Assembly: GCA_963729895.1 (NCBI GenBank)
Contig: CAVSQB010000009.1
Location: 32,001 to 96,000, forward strand
Source of the DNA: an uncultured Fibrobacterota bacterium
GTDB lineage: Bacteria; Fibrobacterota; Chitinivibrionia; Chitinivibrionales; FEN-1185
DNA length: 64,000 nucleotides
Direction of reading: 5' to 3'
Shown here piece after piece: positions 39,001-54,000 of this stretch. How positions within the stretch are numbered: the first letter of the stretch is position 1; each line of letters begins with the position of its first letter. Position numbers: made by a program.

Positions 39001-42000
39001 CAGCAAGGCATGATGTTTCAGCGGTTTGTCGCCTCCACCTTCCTGCGCGACAATGCCGGCCGCCGGCTGATGTTGCGGCCCGCCGATCGCTCCGCCGCGG
39101 CAGCCCAGATGCTGCAATGGATGCCGCCGGTGAGCGCTGCGAACGCCAACCTGTTTGTCTTTCCGGAATACTTTTCTTATGTGGTGCACCTGCATTCGCC
39201 ATCATGTCCGGTTTTCTCGCTGGCGCTTGAATCGTACTATAAAAAACGGGCAAGCGGCGACGCTCCGCCGATGATGCGCATGTTCATGGGAGGCGCAACC
39301 ACCGATGAGAAGGTGAACGGGGCTTTGGAAAACAGCGGCTTCGATCAGATTTGCAAAGACCCCCAAAACCGTTTGCTCGTCCCGGATGTCGTCCAGGCGC
39401 TTGGAGATTACCTCTTTACGGTATTGCAAAAAAATATCGGCGATCAGGCTTTCGACGATTTCATGCTTGCGCTTGTGCGGCAGAACAGGTTCGGCACCCT
39501 TGACCTTGACGTATTCTGCGCCACGATACAACAACGCTTCAATTTTGATTTTCATCCCACCCTCCAATCCTGTTACCGGAAACATCCGTTGCCGGGGTAT
39601 TTGCTTGACAATATAGAGGCCAGCGGGGTGCGTGACAAGACGGCCGACCGGTTTCTCCTGCGCTTTGAGATAGCAAATCCGGAATCCGCGCAAGGGTTTG
39701 TCAAGGTGAGCGTTCGAACGGGAACGCTGGGAAGCGGAAGATTTGGGGGGGGCGGCGGGTTTGCAGGTGGTAATCGCGGCGGGACCTTCGGCGGCGCAAC
39801 CGTCGACCGGATCATTTCGCTCGATCCGCGCCAATGTAAAGAAATCGACATGATGATGGATCAGCCGCCGCGAATGCTCTCCATCAACACGCTCATATCG
39901 AAAAATATTCCCGCCACCCTCGTGCATCCCTTCGATAAGGTCGAATTCAACCCGGACCGGGCGCCGTTTGACGGGGAAAAGGTGATACGCGGGATTACTG
40001 CGCCCGAACCGGGTACCGTCATCGTCGACGATGGGGACAGCGGTTTTTCGATAGAAGCCAAACCTTCGACCGGCGTGATGAACTGGTTCAAAAGTTCTTC
40101 GGCCCAACCGCAGGATCGTTACGCCAGCGTGCGTCTCTTTGATCCGCCGGCCGAATGGACCGAAGCCGCGGGTCCGCAATATTACGGAAAGTATGTTCAC
40201 TCCATCCATTATATAAAAGCCGGTGACGGCAGCAAACGAATTGCTTGGAACGCGTCGATCAAAGAGAGCGGCACCTACGAAATTTATGCCTACTACGGCA
40301 CCATGGGGTTTCAGCGCGGAAACGGCCGCCGCCAGAACCGGGAGGCTTTGCATGGGGCATTCCATTATATTGTGCATCACGACGACGGCGTGGAGAATGC
40401 CGCACTTGACTTGAAAGATATCCAGAACGGCTGGAATTCCCTCGGCCGATATCATCTTTCTCCGGGAATGGCCCAGGTGGAGCTCACGGACCAGGGAAGC
40501 CAGGGTATCGTTGCCGGTGATGCAATCAAGTGGGTAAAACAGTGATGGGAGACCCTGTAATAATTCGGTTAATTTGTCAACGCAAGACATGATGAAAAGG
40601 CCATCCATTTCTTAGGGGACCTCTAAAAATTCTGTAAAATAGTAGATTCCAAGATCATGTTGACAGATAGTATTATTTCGCGATGTCAGGGCGTCTATTT
40701 GTCTGATAGGTGCCCAAAACTGTTCTTTTTTCGGTCCCTTTGGGGGCCTTGTGCGGTCCTGTCCCGCTTTTCAGGCGTGGCACTCAAGATATGCAAAGCG
40801 TTTTATGTTGTAAACCAGGTTCAGGAGTCCTATCTTCGCCGCGGCCCTCAGCCGCCCGATACACCTGATCCTGCCACGAAACATGATTTCTATTTGAGCA
40901 AACACATGTTCTATACGCGATCTGACTTTGGATTTCTTCCGGTTCTGTGCCAATTGTGCTTCCGTCAATGGTGCGCCACGAGTCCCTTTGACACATATTT
41001 TGCTTCTGTACCAGAGATAATCAAGCCTTTGTTCCGCCTTTTCCGAATGATACGCGCTGTCGGCAAACACGTCCGCGTTCGTGTTCTCAGGATTAAGGAG
41101 AGGTTCAAGCATATTGGAGTCGTGCACTTCTGCGGATGTCGCCGCATAGTCTCGAATGATTTTATGCTTCGCGTCTACCGACGCATGGTTCTTGTAGCCA
41201 AAAAACGTCTGATCGTTCTTCTTCGTCCATCGCGCATCAACATCTTTCTGACGAAGTTTCTCAGGGTGCTTTTCCCATTCCTGCGGCGTGCCCCCGTTCT
41301 TGATTTCTTTATTCTCCTCCCGCGTGTTTCTCTGGCGAGGTACCTCGACAAAACTCGCATCTATTATTTGGCCTTTCTGGGCAGTGTAACCCGCTTCGTT
41401 CAACTGACGACCGAACAGGTCAAACAGCTTCTTGACAACGCCTGCTTGTGTCAGCGTTTCCCGAAACAACCAGACCGTTTTCTCGTCGGGAATGCTATCC
41501 TCGGAAGTGAGTTCAAGAAACCGTTTGAACGTCAATCGGTCCAGAATCTGAAACTGGGTTTGCGCATCGGAAAGCCCATACATCGTCTGCAACACGAGAA
41601 TCTTGAACATCAGGATATAATCGTACGGTGGACGACCGGCGTTGCTCTTCCGTTCCTTGCGAAAAGCCTTGTCAATAACAGGACGAAAACTCTTCCAACG
41701 TATGGCCCGATTGATGGTTTCAAGAGGGTCTCCCATTTCGGAAAGCTCGGAAAGGCGATTCTCAAGGTCAAAAAGGCCTATCTGTCCCATCGCAATATCC
41801 TCCAGACGGTAGTGGGTTCGCAGGTTTGTTGTCTGGAATTAAAATAATTGACGAAATAGCCTTTGTCAAGCATTAATTGGGCAAATTAGGCAATTTTTAG
41901 AGGTCCCCCTTAGAGATTCCCATCATGAAAAGATACGTTTTGATTTCAACGGTTTTTCTTGCCGCCTTCTGCTGCGGCGCTCAGGCAATCGACACATTGT

Positions 42001-51000: not shown

Positions 51001-54000
51001 TTCGTAACGTGCAGAAGATCTACAACATGCCGGGGCGATTCGCGCGGGAGTGGGGCACCGCCGTCAAGGGCATCGCCCATGGTGATGCGAAGGATGATTG
51101 GGGAGCGCTGCTGTGGCAGATCCCGCTTTTGGGGTTTCTAGTCTATTTTGTCTATTGGTATACGGAAAATGAATTCTGGCAATTCACGTTTGCGCTTGTC
51201 ACGTACTGCTATGCGCTTTTCCTTTTCAAGCGGCACAGCCGGCTCATTTATTGTGCATGGCCGGGGAATAAGGCAGTCATCGGCCCGCAAAACAAAGTGT
51301 ACACGGCTTTGTTCTGGGGAGCGCCGCTCGCGAATTTGGTTTTCTTCCAGCACGATTGGAAACGAATTTCGGTCGTTCTGCTTGCCGGGATTATGTGGTA
51401 TCTGGGGCTTGCCGTTTTCCGGACGTCGCGTTGGCTCGAAAACAATCCCGGGGCCGACCCGCGAAATTGGAAAAAGACCTGGGCAAAGCCTGCCGCCGTA
51501 TTTATTGCATTAGTGAAGGTGATACCCGTGTTGGGCGCCGGCCGGTCAACATTTCATGCACTCAAAGGCGTTAGTCTCCAGATAGAACACGGCATGTTCG
51601 GACTGCTCGGCCCCAACGGAGCGGGCAAAAGCACCCTCATGCGGATCGTGGCGGGAATATACGAGCAGACCTACGGGAAGGTGTACATCAACGGACTCGA
51701 CACCGCCCTGCACCGCGAAGAGCTGCAGGGACTGATCGGCTATCTTCCGCAGGAATTCGGCACGTACCCGAATTTGACGGCGCAGGAATTCATGGATTAT
51801 CAAGCAATTATCAAAGGGCTGCGCAATCCCGCGACGCGGAAGGAGCGGATACGTTCCGTACTGACCGCGGTGCATATGGAAGATCATGCCGATGAAAAGA
51901 TCGGGTCATTTTCGGGAGGGATGAAACAGCGAATCGGCATCGCACAGATCCTCCTTCACCTGCCCCGTATTCTGATTGTGGATGAGCCCACGGCCGGGCT
52001 CGATCCCGGTGAACGGATCCGGTTCCGTAATCTGCTGGTTGAGTTGAGCCGCCAGCGAATTGTGATCTTCTCAACGCATATCATCGAAGATATTTCGTCG
52101 TCGTGCAACCGCATGGCGGTTCTGGTCGGCGGTGAATTGCGTTATGCGGGCGAGCCGTCAGGCATGCTCACGCACGCGGCCGGGCGTGTGTGGCAGGTAA
52201 CCGTCGATTCAACGGCGTATGAAGCGCTCGCCCGGCGAACGTCGGTGGTGCGCCACATAAGCGACCTGCGCCGAATCCATGTCCGGTGCATTTCTTCGGG
52301 CAAACCTCATCCCGAGGCGCAACCGGTGCAACCCACGCTGGAAGATTCGTATCTATGTCTCACGCGCGACCTGAAGGACGATGACGAAAGAGGCCGGAAT
52401 CATGCTGAAACGACGTAAGGCATTCTTGCTCTTCTGTAAAGGCCTGGCCCCCGGTGCAGCGCTCATCGGAAGGCTCGCAGGCTACAACCTCAAGATAATT
52501 TTCAAGCATCAGTTTCTCTATTTCCTTCTCGCGGCGATCGGTTTCTTTACAGTTGTGGTGGGAATAAATATATCCGCCGGAAGGGAGCTGAGTCCGTCGA
52601 TACTCTATAATCTTTTGCTGGTACCGGGATTATTGCTGGTATTTTATCCCGCCGCGTTCGGCATTCAGAACGATGCAGACGCGCAGATGCTCGAAGTGAT
52701 CTTCGGAATTCCCGATTACCGTTACAAGGTCTGGCTTTTCCGATTGCTGCTTTGCTTCGCACTTACGGCTGCCGTGCTTCTGTGTCTCTGCCAGGCATGC
52801 GTGGTATTGCACGTACACCTGCCGGTGTTTGGCATGGCCTTCCATTTGTGTTTTCCGGTCTTCTTCTGGGGCTCACTTGCCTTCCTGTTTTCCACGCTTA
52901 TGCGAAATGGCTACGGTGCGGCTATCATGCTGGTGCTCGCAGGCCTCGGCTCCTGGGTGGTGAGCGGTTCCCTCGCCGAAAGTCAATGGAATATCTTTCT
53001 AAACCCGTTTGCGGTTCCTCAAGGACCCAAGGAATTGGTGTGGGATTCAATTGTTCGGGCCAACCGCGTCATGCTTGCCGTGGCAGCGGGATCGGCCATT
53101 TTGTGGGGCATCAGAAATTTGCAGCGGCGGGAAAAATTCATTTAGATCGCCTCTAGTTTCTGCAGAAGAAGGGTTCCCCACAAACTTCAATAAATCATCA
53201 AAAAGCCTACTTTGTTGATACAATTTTGTGCCACGACACAGTTTCTTAGGGTATGGATCGCTCATTTCAATTATTTTGTGTGCTCGGCAAATGCACCTGT
53301 TTCATGGTCATTGAAGAAAACCAAATGAACAACCCTGCTTCTCATCTGAGCTTTAACGGACTTTCGACGCTGTATCGAATCGCCCATCTTCTCAGCTCGG
53401 GCGGCGGCATAGAAAAGACCATGGAAAGCGTGCTGGACATTCTGGAAACGCATGCCGGCATGAAACGGGGCATGATCTCAATTTTGAACCCGGAAAATTC
53501 CGAGCTGAGCGTGGACGTGGCGAGGGGAATTTCGGAAAGCGGCAAGCTGCGCGGCAAATACAGGTTGGGCGAAGGGGTCACCGGAAAGGTGGTCGCCACC
53601 GGCCGGCCCATAGCCATCCCGAAGCTTCGGAATGAGCCGACCTTTCTCGACAAGACAGGGGCCAGAAAACACCTCAAGGACACCGACCTCGCGTTTCTCT
53701 GCGTTCCCATTAAGTCGGGCGACAACGTCGTGGGTGCGCTGTCGGTGGACAAGGTTTCCGTTCAGGACGCGGTGACTCTCGAAGGCGAACTGGAATTTCT
53801 CAAGGCAGTGTCCGATCTTATCGCCCAAGTGGTCGTTGCACGACGCAAACAACAGGAGCTGATTTCCGCGCTCGAACGGGAAAACCTCGAACTCCGCAAA
53901 ACCCTTGAGGAAAAGGGCAAGCCCGACGAAATGGTTGGGAACAGCGGCTCAATGCGAGAGGTATACCGCCAGATCGGCCAGGTTGCGGCGTCGATGACAA

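What a model noticed while it worked through the whole genome (the two positions that open the first line are those of the whole stretch)
41925..53145. RND efflux pump fused to an ABC ATPase, with a dead proton relay and its own small permease
A five-gene operon (outer-membrane factor g01092, adaptor g01093, plain RND g01094, a 1586-aa RND with six extra membrane helices and a complete ABC ATPase domain at its C-terminus g01095, and a 247-aa six-helix membrane protein of no known family g01096) is conserved from this Fibrobacterota genome to Bacteroidales. I read it as a new class of tripartite efflux pump in which an AcrB-like RND subunit that has lost its proton-relay residues is driven or gated by ATP through a tethered ABC module whose permease is g01096. 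If true, RND pumps are not all proton-motive-force machines, and thousands of genes now named 'efflux RND transporter permease' are hybrid RND-ABC pumps.
Evidence so far: One ORF, no stop: Pfam ACR_tran 5-1035 (E 3e-167) + ABC_tran 1302-1446 (E 8e-30). 4066 database proteins of 872-2776 aa match residues 1040-1586; the best 120 are almost all 1550-1600 aa and carry PF00873+PF00005, labelled Chitinivibrionales, Bacteroidales, Prolixibacteraceae, Melioribacteraceae, KSB1 etc., named only 'efflux RND transporter permease'. Aligned to MdtB/AcrB, the TM4 'DD' is 'DN' and the TM10 Lys is Asn or Gly in all 115 full-length members, while of six other RND pumps of this genome five keep DD and four keep K; Walker A (GPNGAGKS/T), Q-loop, signature (SGGMKQR), Walker B with Glu (VDEPTAGLD) and H-loop are invariant in 37 aligned members. 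AlphaFold2 of residues 1040-1586 (p [...]
(Added by a program. Inside this text positions count along the whole contig: contig position 32,001 is position 1 of the stretch shown here. "Call 12" and the like, gene names such as g00115 and contig names such as C1 are that model's own, and its searches are not shown. The text may have been shortened before it was handed on; [...] marks where a part breaks off. The agent that wrote the report below was given it as the finding of a first reader that could run no searches.)

Follow-up and report, generated by a model that had tools for sequence, protein, structure and literature searches.

The report
RND efflux pump fused to ABC ATPase
One real, conserved gene joins a complete RND efflux-pump subunit to a working-looking ABC ATPase inside a seven-gene export system that seems unstudied, but the sequence does not show that ATP has replaced the ion gradient as the pump's power source.

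Summary
Window 47658-52418 is one 1586-aa ORF: a full AcrB-type RND permease, six extra membrane helices, then a motif-complete ABC ATPase. The next gene (247 aa, no Pfam family) folds as a type V (ABC-2) ABC membrane domain and is predicted to dock on the fused ATPase.

Three corrections:
- **Operon size.** The conserved unit is seven genes, not five. A free paralogous ATPase and an 1140-aa ABC-2-like permease lie directly upstream in 8 of 8 related loci. Here a 1294-bp IS5-type element has split them off.
- **Extra helices.** Four of the six are an insertion between strands 1 and 2 of the ATPase. A distant variant of the fusion has none of them.
- **"Dead proton relay".** The DN/N core is not specific to the fusion. 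The 26 nearest plain RND pumps, from Bacteroidota genomes without the fusion, have Asn instead of the TM10 Lys (26 of 26). 24 of 26 have Asp-Asn in TM4, and no ABC gene was found near the 10 inspected. The equivalents of Asp407, Arg971 and Thr978 are invariant.

My reading is a heteromeric ABC-2 exporter tethered to an MdtBC-like two-paralogue RND pump, with two engines in series. ATP-driven RND remains possible but unsupported. This scan has noted the family before in other genomes. I found no paper on it.

The parts
36230..37120 (+). Free ABC ATPase (296 aa), paralogue of the fused ATPase; first gene of the conserved seven-gene unit
   Evidence: ABC_tran E 9.5e-33. The best NCBIfam hits are DrrA and GldA, both below cut-off. 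It is 47% identical to the fused NBD over 267 aa. It is present directly upstream in 8 of 8 related loci with enough flank.
37123..40545 (+). Large permease (1140 aa): an N-terminal multi-helix ABC-2-like membrane domain, a large extracytoplasmic part, and a Golvesin_C domain at the C-terminus
   Evidence: Golvesin_C E 8.5e-14. Orthologues give weak ABC2_membrane_2/3 and Peptidase_M1 hits, below cut-offs. Atlas neighbours are named 'ABC transporter permease'. No HEXXH or GAMEN motif in 8 of 8 sequences. Hydropathy places the helices within residues 18-278.
40615..41908 (-). IS5-type insertion sequence (1294 bp; transposase 40771-41790 on the minus strand) inserted between the large permease and the OMF gene
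   Evidence: Perfect 17-nt terminal inverted repeats and a 4-bp direct repeat CTTA on both flanks. DDE_Tnp_1 E 3e-26 and DUF772 E 2e-20. 26 full-length, 100% identical copies in the genome. Absent from this position in 8 of 8 related loci.
41925..43391 (+). Outer-membrane factor (488 aa)
   Evidence: OEP E 9.2e-38, two stretches.
43396..44457 (+). Periplasmic adaptor (353 aa)
   Evidence: NCBIfam RND_mfp 178.9 bits, above the cut-off of 94.9. HlyD_D23 E 5e-18.
44471..47560 (+). Plain RND permease (1029 aa); TM4 DD, TM10 Ser in place of Lys
   Evidence: ACR_tran E 3.2e-203 over 4-1018. Motifs. 28% identical to the RND part of the fused gene.
47658..50774 (+). RND part of the fused gene (residues 1-1039); TM4 DN, TM10 Gly in place of Lys
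   Evidence: ACR_tran 5-1035 E 1.3e-166. Alignment to MdtB 9lyq_B and CmeB.
50802..50963 (+). Two extra membrane helices forming a hairpin after RND TM12 (residues about 1049-1102)
   Evidence: AF2 helices 10-30 and 34-63 of the C-terminal module. Hydropathy peaks at 1053-1071 and 1077-1095.
50985..51032 (+). First beta strand of the ATPase (VTIHIRNVQKIY, residues about 1110-1125), separated from the rest of the domain
   Evidence: AF2 strand 71-86. In all 50 listed structural alignments to solved NBDs, the match starts at model residues 68-72 against chain residues 1-5. I1113 and K1120 are invariant in 35 sequences.
51036..51521 (+). Insertion in the ATPase between strands 1 and 2: one short helix, four long membrane helices and one pre-strand helix (residues about 1127-1288)
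   Evidence: AF2 helices 88-101, 105-129, 133-160, 172-195, 198-223 and 234-249. Only about 215-285 residues align across a model span of about 400-470. Absent from the distant variant L002.
51537..52418 (+). Rest of the ABC ATPase with its C-terminal regulatory-type domain (residues 1294-1586)
   Evidence: ABC_tran 1302-1446 E 2e-29. All catalytic motifs are conserved. Fold matches are TM_1403, NosF and the ABCA NBDs.
52402..53145 (+). Small type V (ABC-2) ABC permease (247 aa, six helices); no sequence family
   Evidence: No Pfam or NCBIfam hit. AF2 pLDDT 85.9, pTM 0.83. NosY Z 15.4, and the top 16 fold rows are all type V ABC membrane domains. Predicted to dock on the fused NBD, score 0.69 against a best control of 0.00. 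2556 homologues, all unnamed.

Best explanation
This is a seven-component export machine with two engines in series.

Shown:
- The genes, the fusion, and the conserved gene order.
- Intact ATPase motifs.
- The type V fold of the small permease.
- A TM4/TM10 core shared with plain RND pumps.

Inferred, the ABC part. The two ATPases (one free, one fused to RND) and the two ABC-2-type membrane proteins form one heteromeric type V ABC transporter. The membrane proteins are the 247-aa one and the 1140-aa one with a large periplasmic domain.

Inferred, the RND part. The ABC transporter is held against an MdtBC-like heterotrimer of the plain and the fused RND paralogues by the covalent link to the fused subunit.

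Inferred, the mechanism:
- The ABC part uses ATP for the inner-membrane step. It extracts or flips an amphiphilic substrate and presents it on the periplasmic side, perhaps through the large periplasmic domain.
- The RND trimer, the adaptor and the outer-membrane factor carry the substrate across the periplasm and outer membrane.
- The RND part is driven by an ion gradient, through the same Asp/Asn/Asn/Arg/Thr core that its unfused relatives use.
- The fusion fixes proximity and subunit ratio.

The substrate is unknown.
For: - **One conserved ORF.**
- **Seven-gene order.** It is uninterrupted in 8 of 8 related loci with enough flank: 3 from the window's genus and 5 from Bacteroidota.
- **Distant variant.** L002 is 30% identical and keeps all seven component types in a different order. 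There the free ATPase neighbours the small permease, and the large one neighbours the fused gene. That fits one four-part ABC better than two fixed pairs.
- **ATPases.** Both have canonical motifs and are 47% identical.
- **Small permease fold.** Type V ABC membrane domain: NosY Z 15.4, rmsd 3.8, 219 residues aligned.
- **Predicted docking.**
  - Score 0.69 against a best control of 0.00. That mark was reached by 116 of 157 solved complexes and 2 of 215 mismatched pairs.
  - The runs agree in at least 78% of contacts, and partner pLDDT is at least 77.
  - The interface joins the Q-loop and helical-subdomain groove of the NBD to the small permease's N-terminal helix and its most conserved motif (residues 94-110).
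  - Solved type V complexes exist, so this pass may reflect likeness to them.
- **RND pair.** The best solved relative is MdtB. Two tandem RND paralogues with one adaptor is the MdtBC layout, described as a heterotrimer in PMC8277102 (passages read).
- **Core not specific to the fusion.** The DN/N core occurs in plain adaptor-RND pairs with no ABC found nearby.
- **Core still conserved.** Its remaining residues are invariant in 35 of 35 fused proteins.
Against: - No experiment exists, and no RNA data were found.
- The heteromeric ABC and the RND heterotrimer are inferred from gene content only. Two separate homodimeric ABC transporters fit equally well.
- The ABC-2 nature of the 1140-aa protein rests on weak, below-cut-off hits. 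Profile comparison with the small permease found nothing.
- The extra helices were not in the confident predicted interface with the small permease, so their role is unexplained.
- In AcrB, changing D408 or K940 abolishes transport (PMC8277102, passages read). Ion coupling by a DN/N core is assumed from its spread among plain pumps, not shown.
- In this genome the IS may have uncoupled the first two genes from the other five.
Confidence: 0.45

Rival explanations
1. The RND subunits have a dead proton relay, and their transport cycle is driven or gated by ATP hydrolysis in the tethered ABC module. Force would pass through the extra membrane helices.
For: - Both RND paralogues of the operon family lack the D408/K940 pair, including those of the distant variant.
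- In AcrB each of these residues is required (PMC8277102, passages read).
- The ATPase motifs are invariant.
- In this genome only the two RND genes of this operon lack the TM10 Lys.
- Four membrane helices are inserted into the ATPase itself. They could couple it mechanically to a membrane domain.
Against: - The same DN/N core is found in the nearest plain RND pumps: 26 of 26 have N for Lys, and 24 of 26 have DN.
- These come from genomes in which the fusion was not found.
- They sit in plain adaptor-RND pairs, with no ABC ATPase in 10 of 10 extended loci.
- The equivalents of D407, N941, R971 and T978 are invariant in 35 of 35.
- The distant variant joins the ATPase to the RND through about 55 residues with no extra helices. 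That is a poor lever for force transmission.
- A cognate ABC permease docks on the ATPase in the usual way, so the ATPase already has its own membrane partner.
Confidence: 0.2
2. The ABC module is a mechanotransducer, not a transporter. ATP hydrolysis moves the large periplasmic domain of the 1140-aa protein, which captures, processes or loads a periplasmic or outer-leaflet substrate into the RND pump, or controls pump assembly. This is the style of NosDFY, MacB, LolCDE or FtsEX.
For: - The best fold matches of the small permease and the ATPase are NosY and NosF of NosDFY.
- The 1140-aa partner has an extracytoplasmic part of about 850 residues, with a weak M1-peptidase likeness and a Golvesin_C domain.
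- It lacks the recalled M1 catalytic motifs in 8 of 8 sequences. It looks like a binding domain, not an enzyme.
Against: - Type V ABC proteins are mostly true exporters.
- The fold match covers the whole class (ABCA, ABCG, Wzm, KpsM, all within about 4 Z units), so NosY is not singled out.
- Nothing here tests movement or binding by the periplasmic domain, and its fold was not modelled.
Confidence: 0.2
3. Two independent transporters acting on related substrates are merely encoded together and tethered for co-expression or co-localisation. There is no hand-off or energy coupling.
For: - Relatives of the large permease, 'ABC transporter permease/M1 family aminopeptidase' clusters, are listed by the Atlas from other phyla (scores 0.87-0.88, leads only). 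Their gene neighbourhoods were not examined.
- Plain relatives of the RND pump work without ABC genes.
Against: - A covalent fusion kept at 30-50% identity across phyla, with all seven parts retained even after the gene order changed, argues for a functional unit.
- The linker occurs only in the fused context: 57 representatives in 1.84 billion proteins. The full-length ones are about 1550-1577 aa.
Confidence: 0.1
4. The fusion is an assembly or frameshift artefact.
For: Two congeners show split ORFs in this operon: the large permease in L090 and the fused gene in L092.
Against: 115 of the best 120 homologues are 1538-1640 aa and carry both domains, on contigs of up to 3.1 Mb from several sources. 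Open frames of 1572-1586 aa occur in 7 further genomes.
Confidence: 0.01

Closest known systems
MdtABC-TolC / MuxABC-OpmB (tripartite RND pumps with two RND paralogues forming a heterotrimer)
   Same: One adaptor, two tandem RND paralogues and an outer-membrane factor. MdtB (9lyq_B) is the best solved relative of the fused protein. The two paralogues are only 28% identical to each other.
   Different: - One paralogue carries six extra helices and an ABC ATPase.
- The operon adds a second ATPase and two ABC-2-type permeases.
- TM4 is DN and TM10 lacks Lys.
- Scores are far below the NCBIfam MdtB and MdtC cut-offs.
MacAB-TolC (ABC-driven tripartite pump)
   Same: An ATP-hydrolysing ABC protein in one operon with an adaptor and an outer-membrane factor.
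   Different: By recall, MacB is a type VII ABC with four helices and its own periplasmic domain, and it contacts the adaptor directly. Here the membrane partner of the ATPase has the type V fold, and a full RND permease is present.
NosDFY(L) and other type V (ABC-2) ABC systems (ABCA, ABCG, Wzm-Wzt, PmtCD, CcmAB)
   Same: Best fold matches of the small permease (NosY Z 15.4; ABCH 15.0; ABCA3 14.7; ABCG1 14.7) and of the ATPase with its C-terminal domain (TM_1403, NosF, ABCA). The large extracytoplasmic domain on one membrane subunit recalls the ABCA architecture.
   Different: None of these is fused or tethered to an RND permease. The small permease matches no sequence family.
CFTR NBD1 regulatory insertion
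   Same: An insertion between the first two beta strands of an ABC ATPase domain. It was not tested here.
   Different: By recall, the CFTR insertion is a short, soluble, disordered segment. Here the insertion is about 160 residues with four membrane helices.
Plain DN/N-core RND pumps of Bacteroidota (adaptor-RND pairs)
   Same: The nearest relatives of the plain partner (31-36% identity) share TM4 Asp-Asn and TM10 Asn-Asn, and keep Arg and Thr in TM11.
   Different: No ABC domain, and no ABC ATPase found within 15-20 kb in 10 of 10 loci inspected.

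Membership tests
RND superfamily, AcrB/AcrD/AcrF type (Pfam PF00873) | Full-length match to the 12-helix, two-large-loop permease profile | tested here: met
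   Residues 5-1035 match profile positions 6-1018 of 1021, E 1.3e-166, 556.6 bits against a cut-off of 28.
RND superfamily, AcrB/AcrD/AcrF type (Pfam PF00873) | AcrB-type proton relay: D407, D408 (TM4), K940 (TM10), R971, T978 (TM11). The residue list is from PMC8277102. | tested here: not met
   The D407, R971 and T978 equivalents are kept in 35 of 35. The D408 equivalent is N in 33 and S in 2. The K940 equivalent is N in 31 and G in 4. The same state occurs in plain relatives.
NCBIfam NF033617 RND_permease_2 (multidrug efflux RND permease subfamily) | Score over the curated cut-off of 1250 bits | tested here: not met
   474.1 bits for the fused gene and 567.3 for the plain one. It is the best-scoring model for both, but neither is a member by the cut-off.
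ABC ATPase (Pfam PF00005) | Walker A, Q-loop, signature LSGGQ-type, Walker B with catalytic Glu, H-loop | tested here: met
   GPNGAGK[ST]T, LPQ, SGGM[KR]QR, DEPT and STH are invariant or conservatively substituted in 35 sequences. ABC_tran E 2e-29. NBD fold Z 23-25.5.
Type V (ABC-2) ABC transporter membrane domain, for the 247-aa protein | Six-helix type V fold and docking of a coupling element in the NBD groove | tested here: met
   NosY Z 15.4, rmsd 3.8, 219 of 247 residues aligned, and the top 16 rows are all type V. Predicted interface with the NBD: score 0.69 against a best control of 0.00. That mark was reached by 116 of 157 solved complexes and 2 of 215 mismatched pairs. Contacts agree in at least 78%, and partner pLDDT is at least 77. 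The pass may rest on likeness to solved complexes.
Type V (ABC-2) ABC transporter membrane domain, for the 247-aa protein | Match to a Pfam ABC2_membrane sequence family | tested here: not met
   No family even at E 10. hhalign to an ABC2_membrane_2-positive permease of L002 gives only 20.7% probability, E 1e-3.
Type V (ABC-2) permease, for the 1140-aa protein | ABC2_membrane family match or type V fold of the N-terminal helices | tested here: inconclusive
   Orthologues give ABC2_membrane_2 E 3.4e-5 (23.7 bits, cut-off 27.2) and ABC2_membrane_3 E 0.003. The window protein gives E 0.55. Atlas neighbours are named ABC transporter permease.
MdtBC-type heteromeric RND pump | Two tandem RND paralogues with one adaptor in one operon | tested here: met
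   Gene order is adaptor, plain RND, fused RND in 8 of 8 related loci.
MdtBC-type heteromeric RND pump | Heterotrimer of the two paralogues | not testable with these tools
   No assembly data.
MacB-type (type VII) tripartite ABC pump | N-terminal NBD, four helices and a periplasmic domain in one chain (recalled) | tested here: not met
   The domain order here is RND, helices, then NBD at the C-terminus. The ATPase's partner has the type V fold. The MacB NBD matches only as an NBD.
IS5-family insertion sequence | DDE transposase, terminal inverted repeats, short target duplication | tested here: met
   DDE_Tnp_1 and DUF772. 17-nt perfect inverted repeats and a 4-bp CTTA duplication. 26 identical copies.

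The most novel reading that the evidence does not exclude
The pump runs on both energy sources. ATP binding and hydrolysis by the heterodimer of free and fused ATPases, passed through the membrane helices inserted in the ATPase, gates or powers the conformational cycle of an RND heterotrimer. That heterotrimer's reduced Asp/Asn/Asn core can no longer complete the cycle on the ion gradient alone. RND pumps would then not all be purely gradient-driven machines.
Probability: 0.2. Interest if true: 0.9.

Novelty: new variant of a known kind. Interest (0 to 1): 0.68.

Why it matters
RND and ABC pumps are taught as alternative engines for tripartite efflux. Here they are built into one conserved polypeptide inside a fixed seven-gene system. 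That offers a natural test of how an inner-membrane ATP-driven step is coupled to an envelope-spanning RND duct.

It also brings up two smaller open points:
- An ATPase domain with four membrane helices inserted between its first two strands.
- A large clade of RND pumps, fused and plain, that lacks the D408/K940 pair held to be essential in AcrB. Their ion coupling is unknown.

Public annotation hides the fusion. NCBI names these proteins only 'efflux RND transporter permease subunit'. JGI names both domains.

I found no paper on the fusion. Searches found nothing on it: one search listed 109 papers (20 read as listings), none, nine. The Chem Rev review PMC8277102 and PMC6281302 were read only as passages around search terms. 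TCDB and subscription journals could not be searched.

Tried and rejected
- **Coordinate shift.** Shifting by 32000 puts unrelated genes there. Rejected.
- **Locus search.** The search for related loci with the full-length alignment chose the generic Walker A and Walker B patterns. Only 3 of the 80 loci kept (L001, L002, L005) cover both RND and ABC; the rest are ordinary ABC ATPases. Long ORFs in L007 and L063 that looked like fusions were an unknown protein and glutamate synthase.
- **Stand-alone C-terminal module.** The best 120 hits of 300-958 aa look like contig-end fragments of the fusion. They were not checked one by one. The linker alone finds 57 representatives, with no complete stand-alone form evident.
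- **Profile comparisons.** The small permease against the large permease's helices gave nothing.
- **Solved structures.** Sequence search with the 1140-aa protein gave nothing below E 0.37.
- **Foldseek.** For the small permease there was no match at E <= 0.001. The VIA-align wide search gave the clear answer.
- **NBD tree.** Built from 8 free, 8 fused and 15 outgroup rows. The outgroups were picked by hand from the 77 generic loci.
  - Left out: L005 free (truncated), L092 fused (split), L090 (near-copy of the window).
  - Result: free and fused each group, with supports 85/71 and 90/99. Their relation to the outgroups is unresolved, and three outgroup rows had very long branches.
- **Sigma-54 promoter pattern.** 66 matches against 81 expected, and none placed upstream of the operon.
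- **Sigma-70 and terminator scans.** Near chance level.
- **Expression.** No RNA holder was listed. Eight DNA metagenome runs hold part of the stretch. No reads were laid.
- **GC content.** The operon (52-57%) does not differ from the genome (54.8%).
- **Literature.** Searches on Golvesin and M1-permease, and on BmeB, brought nothing usable.
- **Not folded.** The extra helices together with the RND domain, the large permease, and the ATPase heterodimer.

Full report
**What is there.** The finding's coordinates are window coordinates. On the + strand lie:
- an outer-membrane factor (41925-43391; OEP, E 9e-38);
- an adaptor (43396-44457; RND_mfp, 178.9 bits against a cut-off of 94.9);
- a plain RND permease (44471-47560; ACR_tran, E 3e-203);
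- a 1586-aa ORF (47658-52418) with ACR_tran over residues 5-1035 (E 1.3e-166) and ABC_tran over 1302-1446 (E 2e-29);
- a 247-aa membrane protein (52402-53145) that overlaps the previous gene by 17 nt and matches no Pfam or NCBIfam family.

**The fusion is real.**
- A search with residues 1040-1586 gave 4066 hits among 7998 scored candidates.
- Of the 120 best, 115 are 1538-1640 aa, and all 120 carry both PF00873 and PF00005. Some lie on contigs of up to 3.1 Mb.
- NCBI calls them 'efflux RND transporter permease subunit'. JGI names both domains.
- Only the 120 best were seen, so I cannot say how many of the 4066 are fusions.
- The nearest named relative is labelled Chitinivibrionales, which belongs to Fibrobacterota.

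**The operon has seven genes, not five.**
- In Bacteroidales locus L001 and Porphyromonadaceae locus L005, the OMF gene is directly preceded by an ABC ATPase and a permease of about 1100 aa.
- I fetched seven more loci through whole-genome searches. Including L001 and L005, the order ATPase, large permease, OMF, adaptor, plain RND, fused RND, small permease is uninterrupted in 8 of 8 loci with enough flank. Three are from the window's genus and five from Bacteroidota. L091 is cut by its contig end.
- In the window the same two genes are present: 36230-37120, a 296-aa ATPase, and 37123-40545, 1140 aa.
- They are separated from the OMF gene by a 1294-bp IS5-type element (40615-41908). It has perfect 17-nt inverted repeats and a 4-bp CTTA target duplication.
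- The genome holds 26 full-length, 100% identical copies of this element, so the insertion is recent. All seven ORFs are intact. Whether the insertion is polar is unknown.

**A distant variant.**
- Locus L002 comes from an uncultured bacterium. Its fused protein is 30% identical over residues 5-1566.
- It holds an adaptor, a free ATPase, a 285-aa ABC2_membrane_2 permease, a plain RND, a 922-aa protein, a 1437-aa RND-ABC fusion and an OMF.
- The N-terminus of the 922-aa protein resembles that of the large permease (hhalign 64.8%, E 6e-5).
- All seven component types persist while the order differs. Here the free ATPase neighbours the small permease, and the large one neighbours the fusion.

**Anatomy of the C-terminal module.** I modelled it with an alignment of the window module and 32 natural fragments. 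The AF2 model has pLDDT 73.6 and pTM 0.48.

| Module residues | Full-protein residues | Element |
|---|---|---|
| 10-63 | about 1049-1102 | Two-helix hairpin after RND TM12 |
| 71-86 | about 1110-1125 | Beta strand (VTIHIRNVQKIY) |
| 88-101 | about 1127-1140 | Short helix |
| 105-223 | about 1144-1262 | Four long helices |
| 234-249 | about 1273-1288 | Pre-strand helix |
| 255 onward | 1294-1586 | ATPase core |

- All 50 listed structural alignments to solved ATPase domains begin at model residues 68-72, against chain residues 1-5.
- They align only about 215-285 residues over a model span of about 400-470 (Z 23-25.5).
- So in the model the strand occupies the canonical first-strand position, and the four helices are an insertion between strands 1 and 2.
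- Confidence around the strand is modest (pLDDT 49-60). The I..I....K.Y pattern is conserved, with I1113 and K1120 invariant in 35 sequences.
- BLAST alignment of the free ATPase to the fused one starts only at the free ATPase's residue 18, that is after its first strand.
- The L002 fusion has none of the six helices. About 55 residues follow TM12, then strand 1, then a soluble insert of about 45 residues, then strand 2 and Walker A. The helices are therefore a lineage-specific elaboration, not a requirement of the fusion.
- The linker occurs nowhere else. Only 57 representatives in 1.84 billion proteins match at E <= 0.001. The full-length ones are about 1550-1577 aa with the linker at about 1030-1295, and the rest look like fragments.

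**The ATPase.**
- All catalytic motifs are invariant or conservatively substituted in 35 aligned full-length members.
- The fold is closest to TM_1403, NosF and the ABCA ATPase domains, which share a C-terminal regulatory-type domain.
- The free ATPase is 47% identical and also has canonical motifs.
- In a tree, the free ATPases (including L002's) group together, and so do the main-branch fused ATPases. Their relation to other ABC ATPases is unresolved.

**The small permease.**
- It has 2556 homologues, all unnamed and without Pfam domains.
- Its AF2 model is confident (pLDDT 85.9, pTM 0.83).
- The model matches type V ABC membrane domains: NosY Z 15.4 (rmsd 3.8, 219 aligned), ABCH 15.0, ABCA3 14.7, ABCG1 14.7, PmtD 13.4, CcmB 12.0, Wzm 11.7 and KpsM 11.4. 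The top 16 rows are all of this class.
- The complex prediction with the C-terminal module scored 0.69 against a best control of 0.00. That mark was reached by 116 of 157 solved complexes and 2 of 215 mismatched pairs.
- The runs agree in at least 78% of contacts, and partner pLDDT is at least 77.
- The interface joins the Q-loop and helical-subdomain groove of the ATPase to the permease's N-terminal helix and to residues 94-110, its most conserved motif.
- Similar complexes are solved, so the pass may show likeness, not binding. The extra helices are not in the confident interface.

**The large permease.**
- Hydropathy places helices within residues 18-278.
- Orthologues give weak, below-cut-off hits to ABC2_membrane_2/3 and Peptidase_M1, plus a clear Golvesin_C domain at the C-terminus.
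- Atlas neighbours are named 'ABC transporter permease'. More distant ones are 'ABC transporter permease/M1 family aminopeptidase' (leads only).
- None of 8 sequences has HEXXH or GAMEN, the M1 motifs as I recall them. If the domain is M1-like, it is not an active peptidase.

**The proton relay.** PMC8277102 (passages read) names D407, D408, K940, R971 and T978 as the AcrB relay. It states that substituting one of these residues abolishes extrusion.

| Protein or set | TM4 | TM10 (K940 position) |
|---|---|---|
| Window fused protein | DN | G |
| 35 full-length fused members | D407 equivalent D in 35; D408 equivalent N in 33, S in 2 | N in 31, G in 4 |
| Window plain partner | DD | S |
| Plain partners in L001, L005, L002 and L097-L100 | DN | N |
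| L002 fused protein | DS | P |
| Four other full-length RND genes of this genome | DD | K |

In the 35 fused members, the equivalents of N941, R971 and T978 are invariant.

The decisive control was the nearest relatives outside the system.
- I searched 401 Bacteroidota genomes with the plain RND. The four system genomes score 990-1135 bits, then there is a gap to 536 bits or less.
- The next 26 best hits come from 26 genomes in which neither the linker nor the fused ATPase was found.
- TM10 has N in place of Lys in 26 of 26. TM4 is DN in 24 of 26 and DD in 2. Arg and Thr of TM11 are kept in 26 of 26.
- All 26 have an adaptor gene directly upstream of the RND gene, and 3 also have a second RND gene downstream.
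- In 10 of 10 loci extended to 15-20 kb, BLAST with both ATPases found no ABC ATPase.

The DN/N core is therefore a trait of a wider clade of ordinary RND pumps. It is neither a consequence nor a signature of the ABC fusion. Those pumps have no ATPase, so they presumably still use an ion gradient. The invariance of the remaining core residues in the fused family points the same way. 'Dead relay' is not supported. How a DN/N core couples ions is open; see the passing notes.

**Distribution.**
- With the linker as query, 5 of 151 sampled genomes of the window's phylum match, G000 included. All five belong to one genus, the only one of 54 genera scored with a match.
- In Bacteroidota, 4 of 401 sampled genomes match. 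The fused-ATPase query gives the same four, with open frames of 1572-1577 aa. The next best hits are 315-407-aa stand-alone ATPases at 43-45% identity.
- Only the top candidates per genome were scored, so divergent forms may be missed.
- Source labels also name Prolixibacteraceae, Melioribacteraceae, KSB1, Krumholzibacteria, Calditrichaeota and Spirochaetales.
- GC content gives no sign of recent transfer.

**Most likely mechanism (inference).**
- The two ATPases and the two ABC-2-type membrane proteins form one heteromeric type V ABC transporter.
- The covalent link places it against an MdtBC-like heterotrimer of plain and fused RND subunits. One fused subunit per trimer would give exactly one fused ATPase to pair with the free one.
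- The ABC part performs an ATP-driven inner-membrane step. The RND pump, adaptor and OMF carry the substrate outward, using the ion-coupled core they share with plain relatives.
- I put this at 0.45.
- Rivals: ATP drives or gates the RND cycle (0.2); the ABC part is a mechanotransducer acting through the large periplasmic domain (0.2); two merely co-encoded transporters (0.1); artefact (0.01).

**Novelty.**
- All parts belong to known classes, but the combination appears undescribed. It comprises an RND-ABC polypeptide, an ATPase split by membrane helices, and a fixed seven-gene unit.
- Full-text searches for RND with ABC fusion terms and for the two Pfam accessions together found nothing on it.
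- The review PMC8277102 and the Bacteroides transporter census PMC6281302 were read only around search terms.
- TCDB and subscription journals were not searchable.
- This scan has already noted the same family in other genomes: 54 notes in at least 49 genomes. They include the seven-gene unit and the split first strand. I reached both from my own calls before reading those notes.
- New here, as far as those notes show: the IS split, the helix-free distant variant, and the control that removes the 'dead relay' argument.

Noticed in passing
window 40615-41908, and 25 other places in the genome: The 1294-bp IS5-type element is present in 26 full-length, 100% identical copies. A further 6 pieces of 107-110 nt lie at contig ends. 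This points to a recent burst of transposition, which probably also fragments the assembly.
   Followed up: partly
window 53253-54881 and 55573-57206: The GAF/sigma-54 activator downstream of the operon is followed by the window's only perfect TGGCAC-N5-TTGC match (55573-55587, + strand). That match lies about 175 nt upstream of a 480-aa ORF that looks to me like an ammonium transporter; I did not scan it. The regulator probably serves that gene, not the pump.
   Followed up: partly
L101-L126 (26 Bacteroidota genomes) and window 44471-50774: A whole clade of RND pumps, plain and fused, has Asp-Asn in TM4 and Asn-Asn in TM10, with Arg and Thr kept in TM11. In AcrB the replaced residues are essential. 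An Asp/Asn/Asn/Thr cluster would also suit a Na+ site. That idea is my speculation and is untested.
   Followed up: partly
L090 12292-15793 and L092 2027-6951: In two genomes of the window's genus the operon carries split ORFs: the large permease in L090 and the fused gene in L092. These are frameshifts, either sequencing errors or decay.
   Followed up: no
G000 C14:61483-65745 and C15:74198-78537: Two further RND genes of this genome are in pieces. One is in two parts about 1.3 kb apart. The other has a TAG inside and a second piece 1.3 kb downstream. Neither place is in the list of copies of the IS studied here.
   Followed up: no
window 41817-41845: A promoter-like site (TTCGCA, 17 nt, TAAAAT; 9 of 12 matches) lies inside the right end of the IS and reads outward towards the OMF gene. 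The scan as a whole was at chance level.
   Followed up: no
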